Assembly: GCA_041172025.1 (NCBI GenBank)
Contig: JBEDKT010000065.1
Location: 1 to 37,126 of the forward strand
From: Bacteroidota bacterium
Lineage (GTDB): Bacteria > Bacteroidota > Bacteroidia > Chitinophagales > Chitinophagaceae
Length of the DNA: 37,126 nt
Reading direction: 5' to 3'
A program made the translations under genes and the position numbers. The notes below the pieces were generated by a model. It was not told the DNA's origin and did not search any database. It was given only the letters and a program-made list of their open reading frames with translations. Positions 12,870-21,729 of this stretch are shown here, in pieces (the first letter of the stretch is position 1; every line of letters starts with the position of its first letter).

Positions 12870-12914
12870 GAAATTCCAAAACAATACTATATTTTTGATG
12901 TTCAAACATTGACT

Positions 12915-13448
12915 ATGAAAAAAGTAATATCCACGCTATTTATTTTGGGCTTTGTACTAACTCAATTATCGGCGCAAAAAAATTATAGTACTAATACTGC
13001 ACAAGTTCGTTTTATAGCTGTGGACGACAAAGACATTGACGCAGTAAACAATGCTGCAGTGAGTCGCCTAGAAGCTAATGGTGACCTAAGTTTCATAATG
13101 CTAATGAAGGGCTTTAAGTTTGACATGGAAACAATGCAGGAACATTTTAACGAAGAATATGTAGAAAGTGACAAGTTTCCTCGTGCCCTATTCAATGGTA
13201 AAATAACAAATTTCAAAACTGTCAATTTTAAGAAAGACGGTACTTACCCAGTAACAGTTGAGGGAAATATGCAGGTGCATGGCGTGAACAAAGCTGTCCA
13301 AACCAATGGCATTATTGAAATTAAGGGAGGTGTCCCAAAAGCAACGGCTAAATTCACAGTGGCCTTAAAGGACTTTAATATTGGTGGAATACTGATTAAA
13401 ATGGTTGCTAACAAAATTGACATTCAAGTAACTGCCACCTATCAATAA
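12915..13448 (+). CDS. YceI family lipid/polyisoprenoid-binding secreted protein
   Basis: Signal peptide MKKVIS...; MQEHFNEEYVESDKFP, G.MQVHGV; TATTTTTG -7 element at 12890-12897. Confidence 0.88.
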   Translation: MKKVISTLFILGFVLTQLSAQKNYSTNTAQVRFIAVDDKDIDAVNNAAVSRLEANGDLSFIMLMKGFKFDMETMQEHFNEEYVESDKFPRALFNGKITNFKTVNFKKDGTYPVTVEGNMQVHGVNKAVQTNGIIEIKGGVPKATAKFTVALKDFNIGGILIKMVANKIDIQVTATYQ

Positions 13449-13471
13449 AGTTACCGAATAATTAAGGGCCC

Positions 13472-13502
13472 CTTGCAGCATAATTTGGCTGCAAGCTATT
13501 TG
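13472..13502 (+). terminator. Possible terminator hairpin after the YceI gene
   Basis: CTTGCAGC-N8-GCTGCAAG stem followed by a weak T-rich tail; overlaps the -33 element of the metH promoter. Confidence 0.45.
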
Positions 13503-13515
13503 TATATTACCTTCG
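13484..13515 (+). promoter_or_regulatory. Putative metH promoter (-33/-7)
   Basis: TTTG (13484-13487), 20-nt spacer, TACCTTCG (13508-13515; one mismatch to TAnnTTTG). Confidence 0.65.
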
Positions 13516-13526
13516 CTCCGCATTGC

Positions 13527-13627
13527 AGGGGATTTGTTTATTGTTCAACCTGCCATCCGTAAGGAAAAAGAACTAATAAACGATACAATTATCGCCCCCC
13601 TATTTCTTTTTCTGTTTGGATGACGCA
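13527..13627 (+). ncRNA. Candidate structured cis-regulatory RNA (riboswitch-like leader) of metH
   Basis: Nested stems AGGGG/CCCCT, GTTTATTGTTC/GAAC(T)AATAAAC, TCC-GTAA-GGA and GATA-CAAT-TATC; alternative 17/19-bp helix between 13554-13572 and 13604-13622. Confidence 0.6.
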
Positions 13628-13647
13628 TTAAAAAATAATGTAGTATT

Positions 13648-14661
13648 ATGTCCATTCAAGCAGCGCTTAAAGAGCGAATTTTAGTTATAGATGGTGCCAT
13701 GGGCACTATGATCCAACGTCACAAATTAACGGAAGAAGATTACCGAGGTACCCGCTTTGCCGACTGGCCAAGTGATGTAAAAGGGAATAACGACTTACTA
13801 TGTATTACTCAGCCCGCCATCATCACAGGGATACATTTACAATATTTAGAAGCAGGTGCAGATATTATTGAGACCAATACCTTTAGTAGTACTTCCATTG
13901 CAATGGCCGACTATGATATGCAAGCATTGGCTTATGAATTAAATATAGCAGCAGCTAAATGTGCGAAGGACGCTATTACACAATACAAATCAAAACATCC
14001 AAACTCAAAACAAAAATTTGTTGCTGGATCCATTGGGCCCTTGAATAAAACATTGAGTTTATCTCCTGATGTAAATAACCCAGGCTTTCGTGCAGTAACA
14101 TTTGATGAAGTAGTTACTTCTTATACCGAACAAATTAAAGGCTTGGTTGATGGCGATGTGGATGTGATTTTAATTGAAACTATTTTTGATACTTTAAATG
14201 CAAAGGCAGCCATTTTTGCTGTGAAAGAATTTTTTAGAAAAGAAGGAAAGCCTGAATTACCAATGATGATTAGTGGTACCATTACCGACGCTTCGGGTCG
14301 TACATTAAGTGGTCAAACTTTGGAAGCTTTTTATACCTCCATCGAACATGCAAAACCATTAAGTGTTGGGTTAAACTGTGCATTGGGTGCGCAAGAAATG
14401 AGAAGTCATATTGAGGAACTTTCACAAATCGCAGTTTGCTATACTTCGGCTTATCCCAATGCGGGACTTCCAAATGCGATGGGAGAATATGACGAAGAAC
14501 CACATCAAACAGCACATTTTATTGAAGAATGGGCCAAGAATAAATTTGTAAATATAGTAGGTGGCTGTTGTGGCACTACTCCTGACCATATTAAACATAT
14601 GGCGGACAATGTAAAAAATATTACGCCGAGGGCCTTACCTATTGTTGACACAACTATTTAA
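13648..14661 (+). CDS. metH: Methionine synthase, N-terminal homocysteine-binding (S-methyltransferase) subunit
   Basis: [20 protein letters not shown], Zn ligands GLNCALG and GGCCGTTP. Confidence 0.95.
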
Positions 14662-14665
14662 TTTT

Positions 14666-17377
14666 ATGAGCGAAGAAATAATACATATTAAGCCTTATTT
14701 AAGATTAGCAGGATTAGAACCATTAGTGATTCGTCCCGAAACTAATTTTGTGAACGTGGGTGAAAGAACCAACGTGACTGGATCCAAAAAATTTGCGCGT
14801 TTAATACGAGAAAATTTATATGAAGAAGCATTATCTGTAGCACGCCAACAAGTAGAAAGTGGCGCACAGGTAATTGATGTAAATATGGACGATGCTTTAT
14901 TAGAAGGCGTAAAGGCCATGACTACTTTTTTAAACTTAATGCAAAGCGAACCTGACATTGCACGTATCCCTATAATGATTGATAGCTCAAAATTTGAAAT
15001 CATTGAAGCCGGATTAAAATGTGTGCAAGGAAAGTGTATCGTGAATTCTATTTCCATGAAGGAAGGTGAAGCTAAGTTTATCGAACAAGCGCATATTTGT
15101 AAAGCGTATGGAGCTGCAGTAATTGTTATGGCATTTGACGAAGTTGGACAAGCGGACACCAAGGAAAGAAAAATTGAAATATGCAGTCGCGCTTATAAAA
15201 TATTAGTAGAGCAAGTTGGATTTGATCCTCAGGATATTATTTTCGATCCTAACGTTTTTGCAGTTGCCACTGGTATTGAAGAACACAATAATTATGCAGT
15301 CGATTTTATTGAAGCAACACGGGTAATTAAACAAAGAATGCCACTAGCAAAAGTGAGCGGTGGCGTTTCTAATGTGTCTTTTTCGTTCCGAGGAAACGAT
15401 GCAGTTAGAGAAGCAATTCATGCAGTATTTTTATTCCATGCAATAAAGGCTGGAATGGATATGGGTATTGTAAATGCAGGACAGTTAGAAATATACGATG
15501 AGATAGAACCTGTTTTAAGAAATTTATGCGAGGATGTAATTTTAAACAGAAATAACGAAAACAACGAAGCAACAGAAGCGTTAATACAATATGCAGAAAC
15601 TGTTAAAGCAAAAGGTAAAGTAGAAGTAAAAAGCGCAGCATGGCGTGAAGGAACTGTTGAAGAAAGGCTAGCACATTCACTAATAAACGGAATTACCGAT
15701 TTTATAGACGCCGATACAGAAGAAGCACGTTTAAAATATAGTGCGCCATTAGAAGTTATTGAAGGCCCTTTAATGGCGGGAATGAACCAAGTGGGTGATT
15801 TGTTTGGAGCAGGTAAAATGTTTTTACCACAAGTAGTAAAAAGCGCGCGTGTAATGAAAAAAAGCGTTGCTGTATTGACTCCGTTTATTGAAGCAGAAAA
15901 AGAAAGATTAAAACTAGCCTCAACTAGCCCTAATGGAGTAACAAAAGGACCTGCAAAAATACTACTCGCTACTGTAAAAGGAGATGTGCATGATATTGGT
16001 AAAAATATTGTGGGCGTAGTTTTGGGATGTAATGGCTATGAAATTATTGATATTGGTGTAATGGTACCTGCTGATAAAATATTAGCAGAAGCCGAAAAGC
16101 ACCAAGTGGACATTATTGGATTAAGCGGATTAATTACCCCATCATTAGACGAAATGGTTCACATAGCTAAAGAAATGAAGCGTCGCGGAATGACAATTCC
16201 ATTAATGATTGGTGGCGCTACTACTTCAAGAATGCATACTGCAGTAAAAATTGCTCCTGAATATGGAGACGGGGTGATACATGTACTAGATGCTTCACGT
16301 AGTGTAACAGTTGCAGGATCCTTATTAAACAAGGATCAGAAAAAACCATTTCTTGCTGAATTAGAAAAATCATATATCCAACTAAAGGCCGACTTTGATA
16401 CGAAAAGAACAACTAAGCAATCCTTGCCATACGCAGCAGCTTTAAAAAATAAAGTACAAATAGATTGGTCAAATTTTAGTGTCACCAAACCCAGTTTTAC
16501 GGGTAATAAGGCCATTGAAATTACCGACTTGTCGGTATTGGTAGATTATATCGACTGGAAACCATTCTTTATTGCTTGGGAATTACATGGAAACTTTCCT
16601 GCAATTTTAACTGATGGAGTTGTGGGTGAAGTGGCAAGTAAATTATATGCCGATGCACGCGCTTTGTTAGATACCATAGTGAAAGAAAAATGGTTGACAG
16701 CAAAAGGTGCGGTAGGCTTTTGGCCAGCAGCAGCAGTGAACGATGATGTGCTTGTACAAAACAACGGAACACAAACTCCATTACATTTTTTAAGACAACA
16801 AGCAGTTAAAGCCGCAGGCCAACCGAACTATTCATTGGCCGATTTCATTTGTCCAGCAAGCGAAGACAAAGAAGACTATATAGGCGCATTTGCGGTAACC
16901 ATTCATGGCATTGAAAAACATATTAAAGCATTTGAAGAAAATTTAGATGACTACAATAAAATTATATTACAAGCATTAGCAGATAGGCTTGCAGAAGCCT
17001 TTGCCGAATACTTGCATACAAAAACTAGGAAAGAATATTGGGGATATGCAAAAGACGAAGTGTTAGATAACGAAGCTTTAATTAAAGAAAGCTATGTGGG
17101 TATTCGTCCAGCACCAGGCTATCCTGCTTGCCCTGACCATACCGAAAAATACACGCTATTCAATTTATTAGAGACTGAAAAGCATACAGGCATTACACTC
17201 ACTGAAAGCTTGGCCATGTATCCAGCATCAAGTGTTTGTGGATGGTATTTTGCAAATCCACAAAGTCAATATTTTGGATTAGGAAAAATTGGACAGGACC
17301 AGGTTGCTGACTATACAATTAGGAAAAAGCAGACACTAGAATATATCACAAGATGGCTACAACCAGTGATTGACTAA
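14666..17377 (+). CDS. metH: Cobalamin-dependent methionine synthase, pterin-, B12-binding and activation domains
   Basis: [29 protein letters not shown]12 motif DVHDIGKN...SGL...[15 protein letters not shown]; start ATG 14666. Confidence 0.96.
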
Positions 17378-21320: not shown

Positions 21321-21464
21321 ATGGGAAGAGGAGATAAAAAAACAGCTAAAGGCAAAAGATTCATGGGATCTTTCGGAGTAAGCAGACCACACAAAGTAGC
21401 TACTACTGCACCGAAGCCAGCAGCAGCTGCAACTGCACCAAAAACAACTAAAGCAAGCGCTTAA
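21321..21464 (+). CDS. thx: 30S ribosomal protein THX (bTHX)
   Basis: Unlisted 47-aa ORF MGRGDKKTAKGKRFMGSFGVSRPHKVATTAPKPAAAATAPKTTKASA; matches the THX signature MG.GD.KT..GK...GS.G..RP. Confidence 0.92.
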   Translation: MGRGDKKTAKGKRFMGSFGVSRPHKVATTAPKPAAAATAPKTTKASA

Positions 21465-21519: not shown

Positions 21520-21729
21520 ATGAAAAAGCTTTCAATTTTATTTACATTATTACTCCTAAGCACTATTAGTTTTGGGCAATGTTCTATTTGTACAAAAACG
21601 GCAAGTCAAATTGGAGAAGAAGCTGGTAAAGGTTTTAATGCTGGTGTATTATACCTAGCGGCTATGCCATTTGCAATTATTGGATATATAGCTTACAAAT
21701 GGTGGAAAAACGAAAACGCTGCCGCCTAA
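21520..21729 (+). CDS. Small exported CxxC membrane protein (hypothetical)
   Basis: Signal peptide, QCSICTKT, one further TM helix (GVLYLAAMPFAIIGYIAYKWW); TAAATTTG at 21507-21514. Confidence 0.8.
   Translation: MKKLSILFTLLLLSTISFGQCSICTKTASQIGEEAGKGFNAGVLYLAAMPFAIIGYIAYKWWKNENAAA

What the first reader, a model, noticed from the sequence alone, without database searches (positions are those of the whole stretch)
13520..13647. Candidate new riboswitch-like switchable RNA in the metH leader
Seen in sequence: a promoter motif (TTTG-N20-TACCTTCG) implies a ~125-nt 5' leader, much longer than the other leaders inferred in this window. Fold A is a multi-stem junction. P1 is AGGGG(13527-31)/CCCCU(13597-601). 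P2 is GUUUAUUGUUC(13536-46)/GAAC-U-AAUAAAC(13570-81). Inside P2 lies an asymmetric internal loop AACCUGCCA/AAAA and a UCC-GUAA-GGA hairpin with a GNRA tetraloop. A side hairpin GAUA-CAAU-UAUC spans 13582-93, and a U-rich tract follows P1 directly. Fold B is mutually exclusive: 13554-13572 (CAUCCGUAAGGAAAAAGAA) pairs with 13604-13622 (UUCUUUUUCUGUUUGGAUG) at 17 of 19 positions including 2 G-U, which destroys the GNRA hairpin and part of P2 and sequesters the U tract. Established: methionine synthase genes are frequent targets of SAM, SAH and cobalamin riboswitches, and aptamer plus competing helix is the classic riboswitch layout. By eye this RNA lacks the SAM-I (AUC..GAU core, kink-turn), SAH (GAGGAGCG..GGCGCUC) and full cobalamin consensus. 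It has only a faint SAM-II/V echo (GAUUUG...CAUUAAAAAA). Inference: an unclassified element sensing a methyl-cycle ligand (SAM, SAH, Hcy, methyl-THF or B12) or a protein.
Basis: partly seen in the sequence, partly recalled or inferred. Interest (0 to 1): 0.85.

Follow-up and report, generated by a model that had tools for sequence, protein, structure and literature searches.

The report
Uncatalogued SAM-II/V-type riboswitch before metH
The leader of this bacterium's methionine synthase gene carries an RNA motif, conserved across most genera of its family and missed by the RNA-family database, that is predicted to fold like known S-adenosylmethionine (SAM) sensors with one ligand-contact base changed, and it likely switches the gene off when SAM is plentiful.

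Summary
A real conserved cis-element, but not the multi-stem junction proposed. Window 13525-13582 is a predicted H-type pseudoknot (P1 13525-29/13549-53; P2 13536-46/13570-81, bulged U13574) of the SAM-II/SAM-V class. No Rfam hit. One copy in 113 of 150 Chitinophagaceae genomes, also in three sister families, not found outside the order; 163 of 169 loci precede metH. Both helices covary. All SAM-V adenine- and sulfonium-reading bases are kept; the aminoacyl-contact A50 is U in all 230 genuine copies. Other families of the order hold SAM-I in the same slot (19 of 40 leaders), and in sister families the aptamer abuts or overlaps the start codon: SAM, OFF, inferred. Ligand untested; long-leader wiring unresolved (11% look like ON-type terminators). 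The scan found this motif before on other DNA (four notes). New variant of a known kind.

The parts
13472..13495 (+). Hairpin with U-rich tail after the upstream yceI-like gene (likely its terminator); overlaps the -33 box
   Evidence: terminator scan; YceI domain at 12909-13448
13484..13515 (+). Bacteroidota-type promoter-like site: TTTG (13484-87), 20 nt, TACCTTCG (13508-15); start of transcription inferred near 13521-22
   Evidence: a TAnnTTYR box lies within 45 nt upstream of the aptamer core in 166 of 167 loci, 158 of them at 11-17 nt, vs 106 of 2543 coding 41-mers; promoter consensus recalled
13525..13529 (+). P1 5' strand GCAGG (this copy lacks one base of the family's CAGGC)
   Evidence: all 6 P1 pairs show two-sided changes
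13531..13536 (+). GAUUUG, predicted major-groove third strand (SAM-V G5/A7/U8/U9/U10/G11 equivalents)
   Evidence: invariant columns; mapping Table S4; triplex inferred
13536..13546 (+). P2/P2a 5' strand; A13540 = A18, U13541 = U19, U13542 = U20, G13543 = G21
13549..13553 (+). P1 3' strand CCUGC
13556..13569 (+). Optional P3 hairpin (UCC-GUAA-GGA) and A-rich linker; variable in length and sequence
13570..13581 (+). P2/P2a 3' strand GAAC-U-AAUAAAC; bulged U13574 = U47 (predicted adenine contact), A13575/A13576 = A48/A49 (U-A-U triples), U13577 replaces A50 (aminoacyl contact)
13582..13603 (+). Small hairpin (13582-93) and C-rich spacer
   Evidence: C/G 2.05 in the 40 nt after the aptamer family-wide vs 1.23 after SAM-I
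13604..13624 (+). Switch strand: pairs with 13554-72 (fold B, predicted ON state) or, with the aptamer locked, with 13650-63 of the coding start (predicted OFF state)
13648..14661 (+). metH N-terminal half (homocysteine S-methyltransferase domain)
14666..17377 (+). metH C-terminal half (pterin-binding, B12-binding, activation domains); ORF listed from TTG 14642, first ATG 14666

Best explanation
Window 13525-13582 is a conserved metH-leader motif that is predicted to fold as a SAM-II/SAM-V-class pseudoknot and likely binds SAM to switch the split methionine synthase off, in this copy probably by blocking translation initiation. Shown: sequence conservation, covariation of both helices, link to metH, identity of the SAM-V pocket bases, and the A50-to-U change. 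Inferred: SAM sits in the major-groove triplex (adenine on U13574/U13533, sulfonium on U13534.U13542-A13575) and its amino-acid end is read by the major-groove edge of a Watson-Crick A13540-U13577 pair instead of A50. Predicted switch in this copy: without SAM, strand 13604-22 invades P3, the linker and the foot of P2 (fold B) and leaves the start region open; with SAM the pseudoknot is locked, the strand is freed and pairs with codons 1-5, enclosing the AUG. In sister families the locked P2 strand itself covers the initiation region. SAM plus OFF logic alone I put at about 0.78; the translational step in this copy lowers the whole statement.
For: Pocket: SAM-V contacts U8/U47, U9.U20:A48, U10.U19:A49, A7.G21:C46, G.U22:A45 (PMC6061858 text and Table S4) all have invariant equivalents. 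Fold: P1 6 of 6 pairs with two-sided changes, 0 of 500 shuffles reach the covariation score (109 rows including the chance row L068); P2 C24:G43 to U:A in 13 of 47 and U12:A53 to C:G in 3 of 47 rows (alignment fitted to the P2 model, so it leans that way). Gene link: 163 of 169 loci directly before metH; one copy per genome in 113 of 150; in G387 and G578 both separately located metH halves carry it. Ligand by substitution: SAM-I above gathering score in 19 of 40 metH leaders from the order, one of them from this family; none of those 40 carried both. OFF logic: start codon within 12 nt of the aptamer end in 22 of 23 sister-family loci, directly adjacent in 8 and overlapping in 3 (starts placed by eye), and 5-12 nt in 7 of 163 loci of the first set; mRNA structure near the start lowers translation in Flavobacterium (PMC6847099, abstract and section 17). 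This copy: mean unpaired at 13645-62 is 0.36 with the aptamer locked vs 0.76 with fold B locked; no U tract follows fold B. Leaders of 40-90 nt: start region 0.415 unpaired when locked, 0.587 in the ON state, 0.476 with the spacer shuffled (n = 42); 25 of 85 loci at or beyond 1 of 20 shuffles. Window's clade: 24 of 66 leaders less open when locked, 1 more open.
Against: No binding or expression data. A50 is a direct ligand contact: A50-inosine raised Kd 0.5 to 16.8 uM in bhmT SAM-V, and the SAM-II equivalent A47 is reported completely conserved (PMC3764141 passage); here it is U in 230 of 230. Only 2 nt separate G11 from U17 (5 in SAM-V), so the triplex-to-P2a turn is unusually tight and unmodelled. 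No Rfam SAM-II/V model scores it near cut-off (best 18.3 vs 41 bits). The AUG-burying helix is not better than synonymous recodings (0 of 66 at p <= 0.05; this copy p = 0.135) and the cognate pairing was not the best one for most coding-start types. In 71 leaders over 130 nt the start region does not change (0.56 vs 0.57). 16 of 146 long leaders have the anti-aptamer hairpin followed by at least 6 U of 8 (3.0 expected after shuffling), which would be ON wiring. Loci are related, so the statistics overstate.
Confidence: 0.62

Rival explanations
1. Same SAM-binding OFF switch, but the output is transcriptional: with SAM bound the C/U-rich stretch after the aptamer stays single-stranded and Rho terminates; without SAM the anti-aptamer helix hides it.
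For: The 40 nt after the aptamer are C-rich and G-poor (C/G 2.05 vs 1.23 after SAM-I; 2.4 vs 1.1 in distal leader) and more open when the aptamer is locked (0.53 vs 0.44; 62 vs 0 of 156 loci shift by over 0.1). No strong terminator downstream (6 of 156 vs 30 of 30 for SAM-I controls). Long leaders show no change at the start codon. Most SAM-II switches are described as transcriptional (PMC6061858).
Against: The C-rich patch is short (about 30 nt) and partly looped in both states; no RNA-end data; does not apply to copies that abut the start codon. Could act together with translational block.
Confidence: 0.16
2. The A50-to-U pocket has changed specificity (a SAM relative with a different amino-acid end, or SAH), and in long leaders the anti-aptamer hairpin is a terminator so that ligand turns metH ON.
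For: Invariant change at a direct contact; found only before metH while SAM-I, present in 117 of 150 of the same genomes, serves metB/metY/hom-like genes; 16 of 146 hairpin-plus-U cases vs 3.0 expected; close aptamer variants with new ligands are known (PMC10853860, search listing only).
Against: The sulfonium-selecting U.U-A triple is invariant; copies overlapping the start codon can only be OFF when the pseudoknot is stabilised; SAM-I fills the same slot in sister families; ahcY is present yet no second copy of the motif was found in any of 113 genomes; the 16 hairpins are weak (-8 to -12.5 kcal/mol over 45-60 nt); one of 28 CUAA-type rows seen in the SAM-II long-loops alignment also has U at this position; this copy has no U tract after fold B.
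Confidence: 0.14
3. The element is a protein-binding site (RNA or DNA operator) with no small-molecule pocket.
For: P2 is almost invariant in sequence within the family, as protein sites often are; ligand not tested.
Against: Two-sided changes in P1 and P2, inserts of 2-63 nt between the halves, a conserved competing helix, and a base-for-base match to a solved SAM pocket.
Confidence: 0.05
4. One reading: a new multi-stem-junction aptamer closed by AGGGG/CCCCU and followed by a U-tract terminator.
For: It is the nested MFE of 13520-13610 (-17.6 kcal/mol).
Against: That helix is not conserved (5 of 165 vs 4.2 expected); the same 5' bases covary with 13549-53 instead; nested folding cannot show the pseudoknot.
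Confidence: 0.02

Closest known systems
SAM-V riboswitch (Rfam RF01826; metY/bhmT of 'Ca. Pelagibacter ubique'; PDB 6FZ0; PMC6061858)
   Same: H-type pseudoknot; AUUUG third strand; UAUUG strand; 4 bp G21-C24 stem plus bulged U47; U.A-U triples; optional P3 with A-rich linker; in short-leader copies the aptamer covers the initiation region.
   Different: A50 is U and pairs with A18; 2 nt instead of 5 between G11 and U17; P2a about 5 bp and A-U rich; an extra purine between P2 and P1; P1 5-7 bp; no Shine-Dalgarno; many copies use an anti-aptamer strand; best model score 18.3 vs 41 bits.
SAM-II long loops (Rfam RF01726; Bacteroidetes and marine; PMC2864571 supplement file 5)
   Same: Same phylum and layout in the rows seen: P1, two purines, GAUUUG, short turn, AUUG, purine, P1', optional inserted hairpin, A run, CUAA.
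   Different: Those rows have a GCA/UG-type stem and A at position 50 in 27 of 28 CUAA-type rows (51 of 162 rows seen); 3-4 nt turn; no match over cut-off in 5 genomes carrying our motif.
SAM-II riboswitch (Rfam RF00521, SAM_alpha; PDB 2QWY)
   Same: G directly before AUUU without an extruded base; long P1; about 5 bp P2a (as summarised in PMC6061858).
   Different: A47, reported completely conserved, is U; P3 often present; no match over cut-off.
SAM-I riboswitch (Rfam RF00162)
   Same: Occupies the metH leader in other families of the order (19 of 40 leaders); probable same ligand and logic.
   Different: Unrelated four-way-junction fold; in this family it precedes homocysteine-synthesis genes and uses strong intrinsic terminators (30 of 30).

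Membership tests
General SAM-II class (SAM-II plus SAM-V types) | H-type pseudoknot with P1 and P2 | tested here: met
   Covariation in both helices; fold itself predicted, not probed
General SAM-II class (SAM-II plus SAM-V types) | Adenine-reading bulged U47 with U8, flanked by G21:C46.A7 | tested here: met
   Invariant bases against Table S4; partly built into the search patterns, but also true of metH-selected and model-found loci
General SAM-II class (SAM-II plus SAM-V types) | Sulfonium-reading U9.U20:A48 and U10.U19:A49 triples | tested here: met
   Sequence invariant; triple formation inferred
General SAM-II class (SAM-II plus SAM-V types) | Aminoacyl-reading A50 (SAM-II A47) in a non-canonical pair with position 18 | tested here: not met
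   U in 230 of 230 genuine copies; the 2 strings with A among 232 are chance model hits L231, L232
General SAM-II class (SAM-II plus SAM-V types) | Upstream of methionine/SAM metabolism genes | tested here: met
   163 of 169 loci before metH; C-terminal half too
General SAM-II class (SAM-II plus SAM-V types) | Selective SAM binding over SAH | not testable with these tools
   Needs in-line probing or ITC
SAM-V (RF01826) | Covariance-model score at or above 41 bits | tested here: not met
   0 of 5 genomes over cut-off; one leader at 18.3 bits; no hit
SAM-V (RF01826) | 2-bp P2a overlapping a Shine-Dalgarno sequence | tested here: not met
   No SD-like run at the 3' strand; P2a longer; aptamer 65 nt from the AUG here
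SAM-II (RF00521) | Covariance-model score at or above 36 bits | tested here: not met
   0 of 5 genomes; no match at the metH leaders
SAM-II long loops (RF01726) | Covariance-model score at or above 44 bits | tested here: not met
   0 of 5 genomes
SAM-I, SAM-I/IV, SAH, SAM-SAH, cobalamin families | Rfam model match in the leader | tested here: not met
   No match at gathering score in the window, none at E <= 10 in 13300-13750 except a chance InvR

The most novel reading that the evidence does not exclude
A Chitinophagales branch of the SAM-II/V fold whose rebuilt amino-acid pocket (A18-U50 pair, tight turn) reads a different methionine-cycle metabolite or SAM at a very different threshold, dedicated to B12-dependent methionine synthase, having displaced SAM-I there, and coupled to at least three interchangeable outputs (start-codon overlap, a distant AUG-burying helix, and a transcriptional one that may even be ON): a new riboswitch class by ligand.
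Probability: 0.14. Interest if true: 0.85.

Novelty: new variant of a known kind. Interest (0 to 1): 0.55.

Why it matters
It would add an uncatalogued riboswitch type carried by about three quarters of Chitinophagaceae genera, abundant soil and freshwater bacteria. It is a natural experiment on a solved pocket: nature fixed a substitution at a base whose modification weakened SAM binding in SAM-V, so one titration says whether the pocket found another way to hold SAM or changed ligand. It also shows how a translational riboswitch may work in a phylum without Shine-Dalgarno sequences, and why one genome may use SAM-I for homocysteine synthesis and another fold for metH.

Tried and rejected
Rfam: no hit in the window at gathering score, or locally at E <= 10 in the window and in a short-insert relative; SAM-II, SAM-V and long-loops models gave nothing over cut-off in 5 genomes. 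The first coding control for the promoter box (85 of 163) used one fixed offset in homologous genes and was replaced by many offsets. Intrinsic terminator downstream of a locked aptamer: rejected (6 of 156 vs 30 of 30). Codon-level selection for the AUG-burying helix: not found. Range outside the order: phylum and class samples of 151 genomes each gave only weak hits (best E 5.6e-4 and 0.009); 8 phylum-search loci read lacked the motif and methionine genes, as did order-level weak hits L230-L232, L234. One search's pair table mis-anchored 4 loci and was redone. RNA runs: contigs from two freshwater metatranscriptome studies cover 13530-13664 of close relatives with 14-15 differences, none of the listed ones in the invariant core (60 rows not shown); contigs show neither strand, ends nor level and may include DNA, so this is not counted as evidence. 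Dropped rows: L068 (chance match, Pseudomonadales record, no P1, no metH) was in alignment A1 but left out of A2; four loci end at contig edges; L112 had no assignable ORF; L024 lacked the strict pattern though the model finds its genome. Literature: 9 full-text searches and term look-ups in PMC8632094, PMC5737381, PMC11109978, PMC5473149 (passages only) found no description of this motif; the original SAM-V paper (PMC2764483) is not held and the supplement of PMC5737381 could not be read, so a mention there or in subscription journals is not excluded.

Full report
Setting. The 199-nt gap between a yceI-like gene (ends 13448) and a split methionine synthase (13648-14661 homocysteine-methyltransferase half; 14666-17377 pterin, B12 and activation half) holds the finding. 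The window is contig 65 of a 1.54-Mb, 80% complete genome. Records carrying the same motif are titled mostly Chitinophagaceae or Bacteroidetes, so I read family f1 as Chitinophagaceae and the order as Chitinophagales; other families bear only codes.

Observation. Fold B is the MFE, z -3.31. Rfam gives nothing at gathering score in the window and only a chance InvR hit locally.

Conservation. A BLAST-type search of 13500-13660 in 301 family genomes put its best matches on query positions about 20-89, just upstream of metH (224 genomes at E <= 0.1, many of the weak ones chance). From 180 loci (30 chosen by metH, 30 by DNA match, 120 by pattern) came 169 distinct motif copies; 163 lie directly before metH, 4 end at contig edges, 1 is a chance match, 1 had no assignable ORF. 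Chosen by metH alone, 29 of the 30 best-scoring loci carry the strict motif but only 7 of 20 lower-scoring ones. A covariance model finds exactly one copy in 113 of 150 family genomes, one per genus, strong hits in three more families of the order (6, 7 and 1 genomes at E <= 1e-4; 11 of 25 in family f11), and nothing convincing outside the order in samples of 151 genomes each.

Structure. The conserved P1 is 13525-29 with 13549-53: all six pairs show two-sided changes and no shuffle of 500 reaches the covariation score. P2 is nearly invariant in the family but covaries in sister families: C24:G43 to U:A (18 strings) and U12:A53 to C:G (12) or A:U (1) among 232 strings, 2 of them chance. The GNRA hairpin is an optional insert.

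Comparison with the solved pocket. I read the whole text and the supplement of PMC6061858. SAM-V holds the SAM adenine on U47 with U8, the sulfonium on U9.U20:A48, and the amino-acid end on A50, with further triples U10.U19:A49, A7.G21:C46 and G5.U22:A45. Window equivalents are U13574, U13533, U13534.U13542:A13575, U13535.U13541:A13576, A13532.G13543:C13573 and G13531.U13544:A13572, all invariant. The exception is position 50: U13577, complementary to A13540, in 230 of 230 genuine copies (many were found with patterns that require it, but metH-selected and model-found copies agree). In SAM-V, inosine there raised Kd from 0.5 to 16.8 uM; the SAM-II equivalent is reported fully conserved (PMC3764141, passages). 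The turn after G11 is also shorter (2 nt vs 5); one f11 copy has a 2-nt insert there. The Bacteroidetes rows of the SAM-II long-loops alignment show the same layout, with A at position 50 in 27 of 28 CUAA-type rows and U in one (PMC2864571 supplement file 5, 51 of 162 rows seen). PMC5473149 treats SAM-II and SAM-V as types of one class (passages). None of the three Rfam models reaches cut-off in five carrier genomes.

Ligand and logic, by inference. In 40 metH leaders from the order that lacked a model hit, SAM-I scored over its cut-off in 19, one from this family; one other carried the insert variant of our motif and none carried both. In two f11 genomes both separately placed metH halves have their own copy. 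In sister families the start codon lies within 12 nt of the aptamer end in 22 of 23 loci, adjacent in 8 and overlapping in 3 (by eye), and 7 of the 163 first-set loci have 5-12 nt. A ligand-stabilised pseudoknot there can only block initiation; structure near the start lowers translation in Flavobacterium (PMC6847099, abstract and one section). No second copy was seen that could serve ahcY, which is present. Together this points to SAM and OFF.

Expression platform. In long leaders a strand about 30 nt downstream mimics the 5' strand of P2 and pairs with the aptamer's 3' strand (duplex -11.9 vs -7.7 kcal/mol shuffled, n = 156; ensemble pairing 0.66 vs 0.13, n = 85). Fold B is this copy's version; close relatives keep a longer one. 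With the aptamer locked, the freed strand 13612-24 is predicted to pair with 13650-63 and enclose the AUG; the start region is 0.36 unpaired against 0.76 with fold B locked. This copy's strand pairs with its own coding start at -14.2 kcal/mol and with six other clade types at -4.6 to -8.1, but other types did not always prefer their own, and synonymous recodings were not significantly worse in any of 66 leaders. Family-wide, leaders up to 130 nt show less open start regions than shuffled controls (25 of 85 at the extreme); leaders over 130 nt show no change. SAM-I in the same family (117 of 150 genomes, none in this incomplete one) precedes metB-, metY- and hom-like genes (5 ORFs scanned) with clear terminators in 30 of 30; our motif has 6 of 156 downstream and 16 of 156 using the aptamer strand. 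Those 16 exceed the 3.0 expected and would wire ON; the C-rich spacer would fit Rho. The long-leader output is therefore unresolved. Kinship makes all these counts less independent than they look.

Earlier notes. Four notes of this scan describe the same motif in other genomes as a SAM-V-like variant; my reading was set before I saw them and they are not counted as support. One suggests ON wiring; I find that possible for about a tenth of long leaders and not for start-overlapping copies or for this one.

Verdict. A real, widespread, uncatalogued variant of the SAM-II/SAM-V riboswitch class that works like a SAM OFF switch for metH, but fails one defining feature (A50) and all three Rfam models, so it should be filed as a variant, not a member of RF00521, RF01726 or RF01826. 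No description was found in the searches listed under Tried and rejected; unread sources may hold one.

Noticed in passing
L207:1739-3052 (G002:C7); also G057:C1:2831675-2832772: The metH N-terminal half has an in-frame insertion near residue 117: about 150 aa with a DUF559-type match in G002, a short one in G057. Possibly a mobile endonuclease-like insert.
   Followed up: partly
L250:4895-4897 (G310:C1): The metH C-terminal half of a single-contig genome has one in-frame TAG between 182-aa and 711-aa open frames; sequencing error, pseudogene or read-through not decided.
   Followed up: partly
L289, L290 (G310, G330, genus g161): Upstream of the N-terminal metH half there appear to be decayed traces of the motif, while the C-terminal half keeps an intact copy.
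   Followed up: no
metH leaders of relatives, e.g. L005, L006, L009: A short repeated element (GYGTCRCWCWC core) lies in 32 of 163 leaders downstream of the switch and once in the window's genome; REP-like by recall.
   Followed up: partly
L322-L351: SAM-I riboswitches of this family (117 of 150 genomes) all 30 examined end in strong intrinsic terminators before metB-, metY- or hom-like genes, whereas several SAM-I copies before metH in sister families show by eye an anti-aptamer without an obvious terminator.
   Followed up: partly
window 21321-21464 (+): 47-aa ORF with weak matches below cut-off to ribosomal protein Thx/S31e families, likely a small ribosomal protein missed by the 80-aa ORF list; a 69-aa ORF follows at 21520-21729.
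   Followed up: partly
window 13472-13495: The upstream gene's terminator-like hairpin overlaps the -33 box of the metH promoter-like site.
   Followed up: no
G400:C75:11239 and G400:C46:19855: Two near-identical copies of the motif, each before a metH N-terminal half, in one genome with 5% contamination; may be an assembly mixture.
   Followed up: partly
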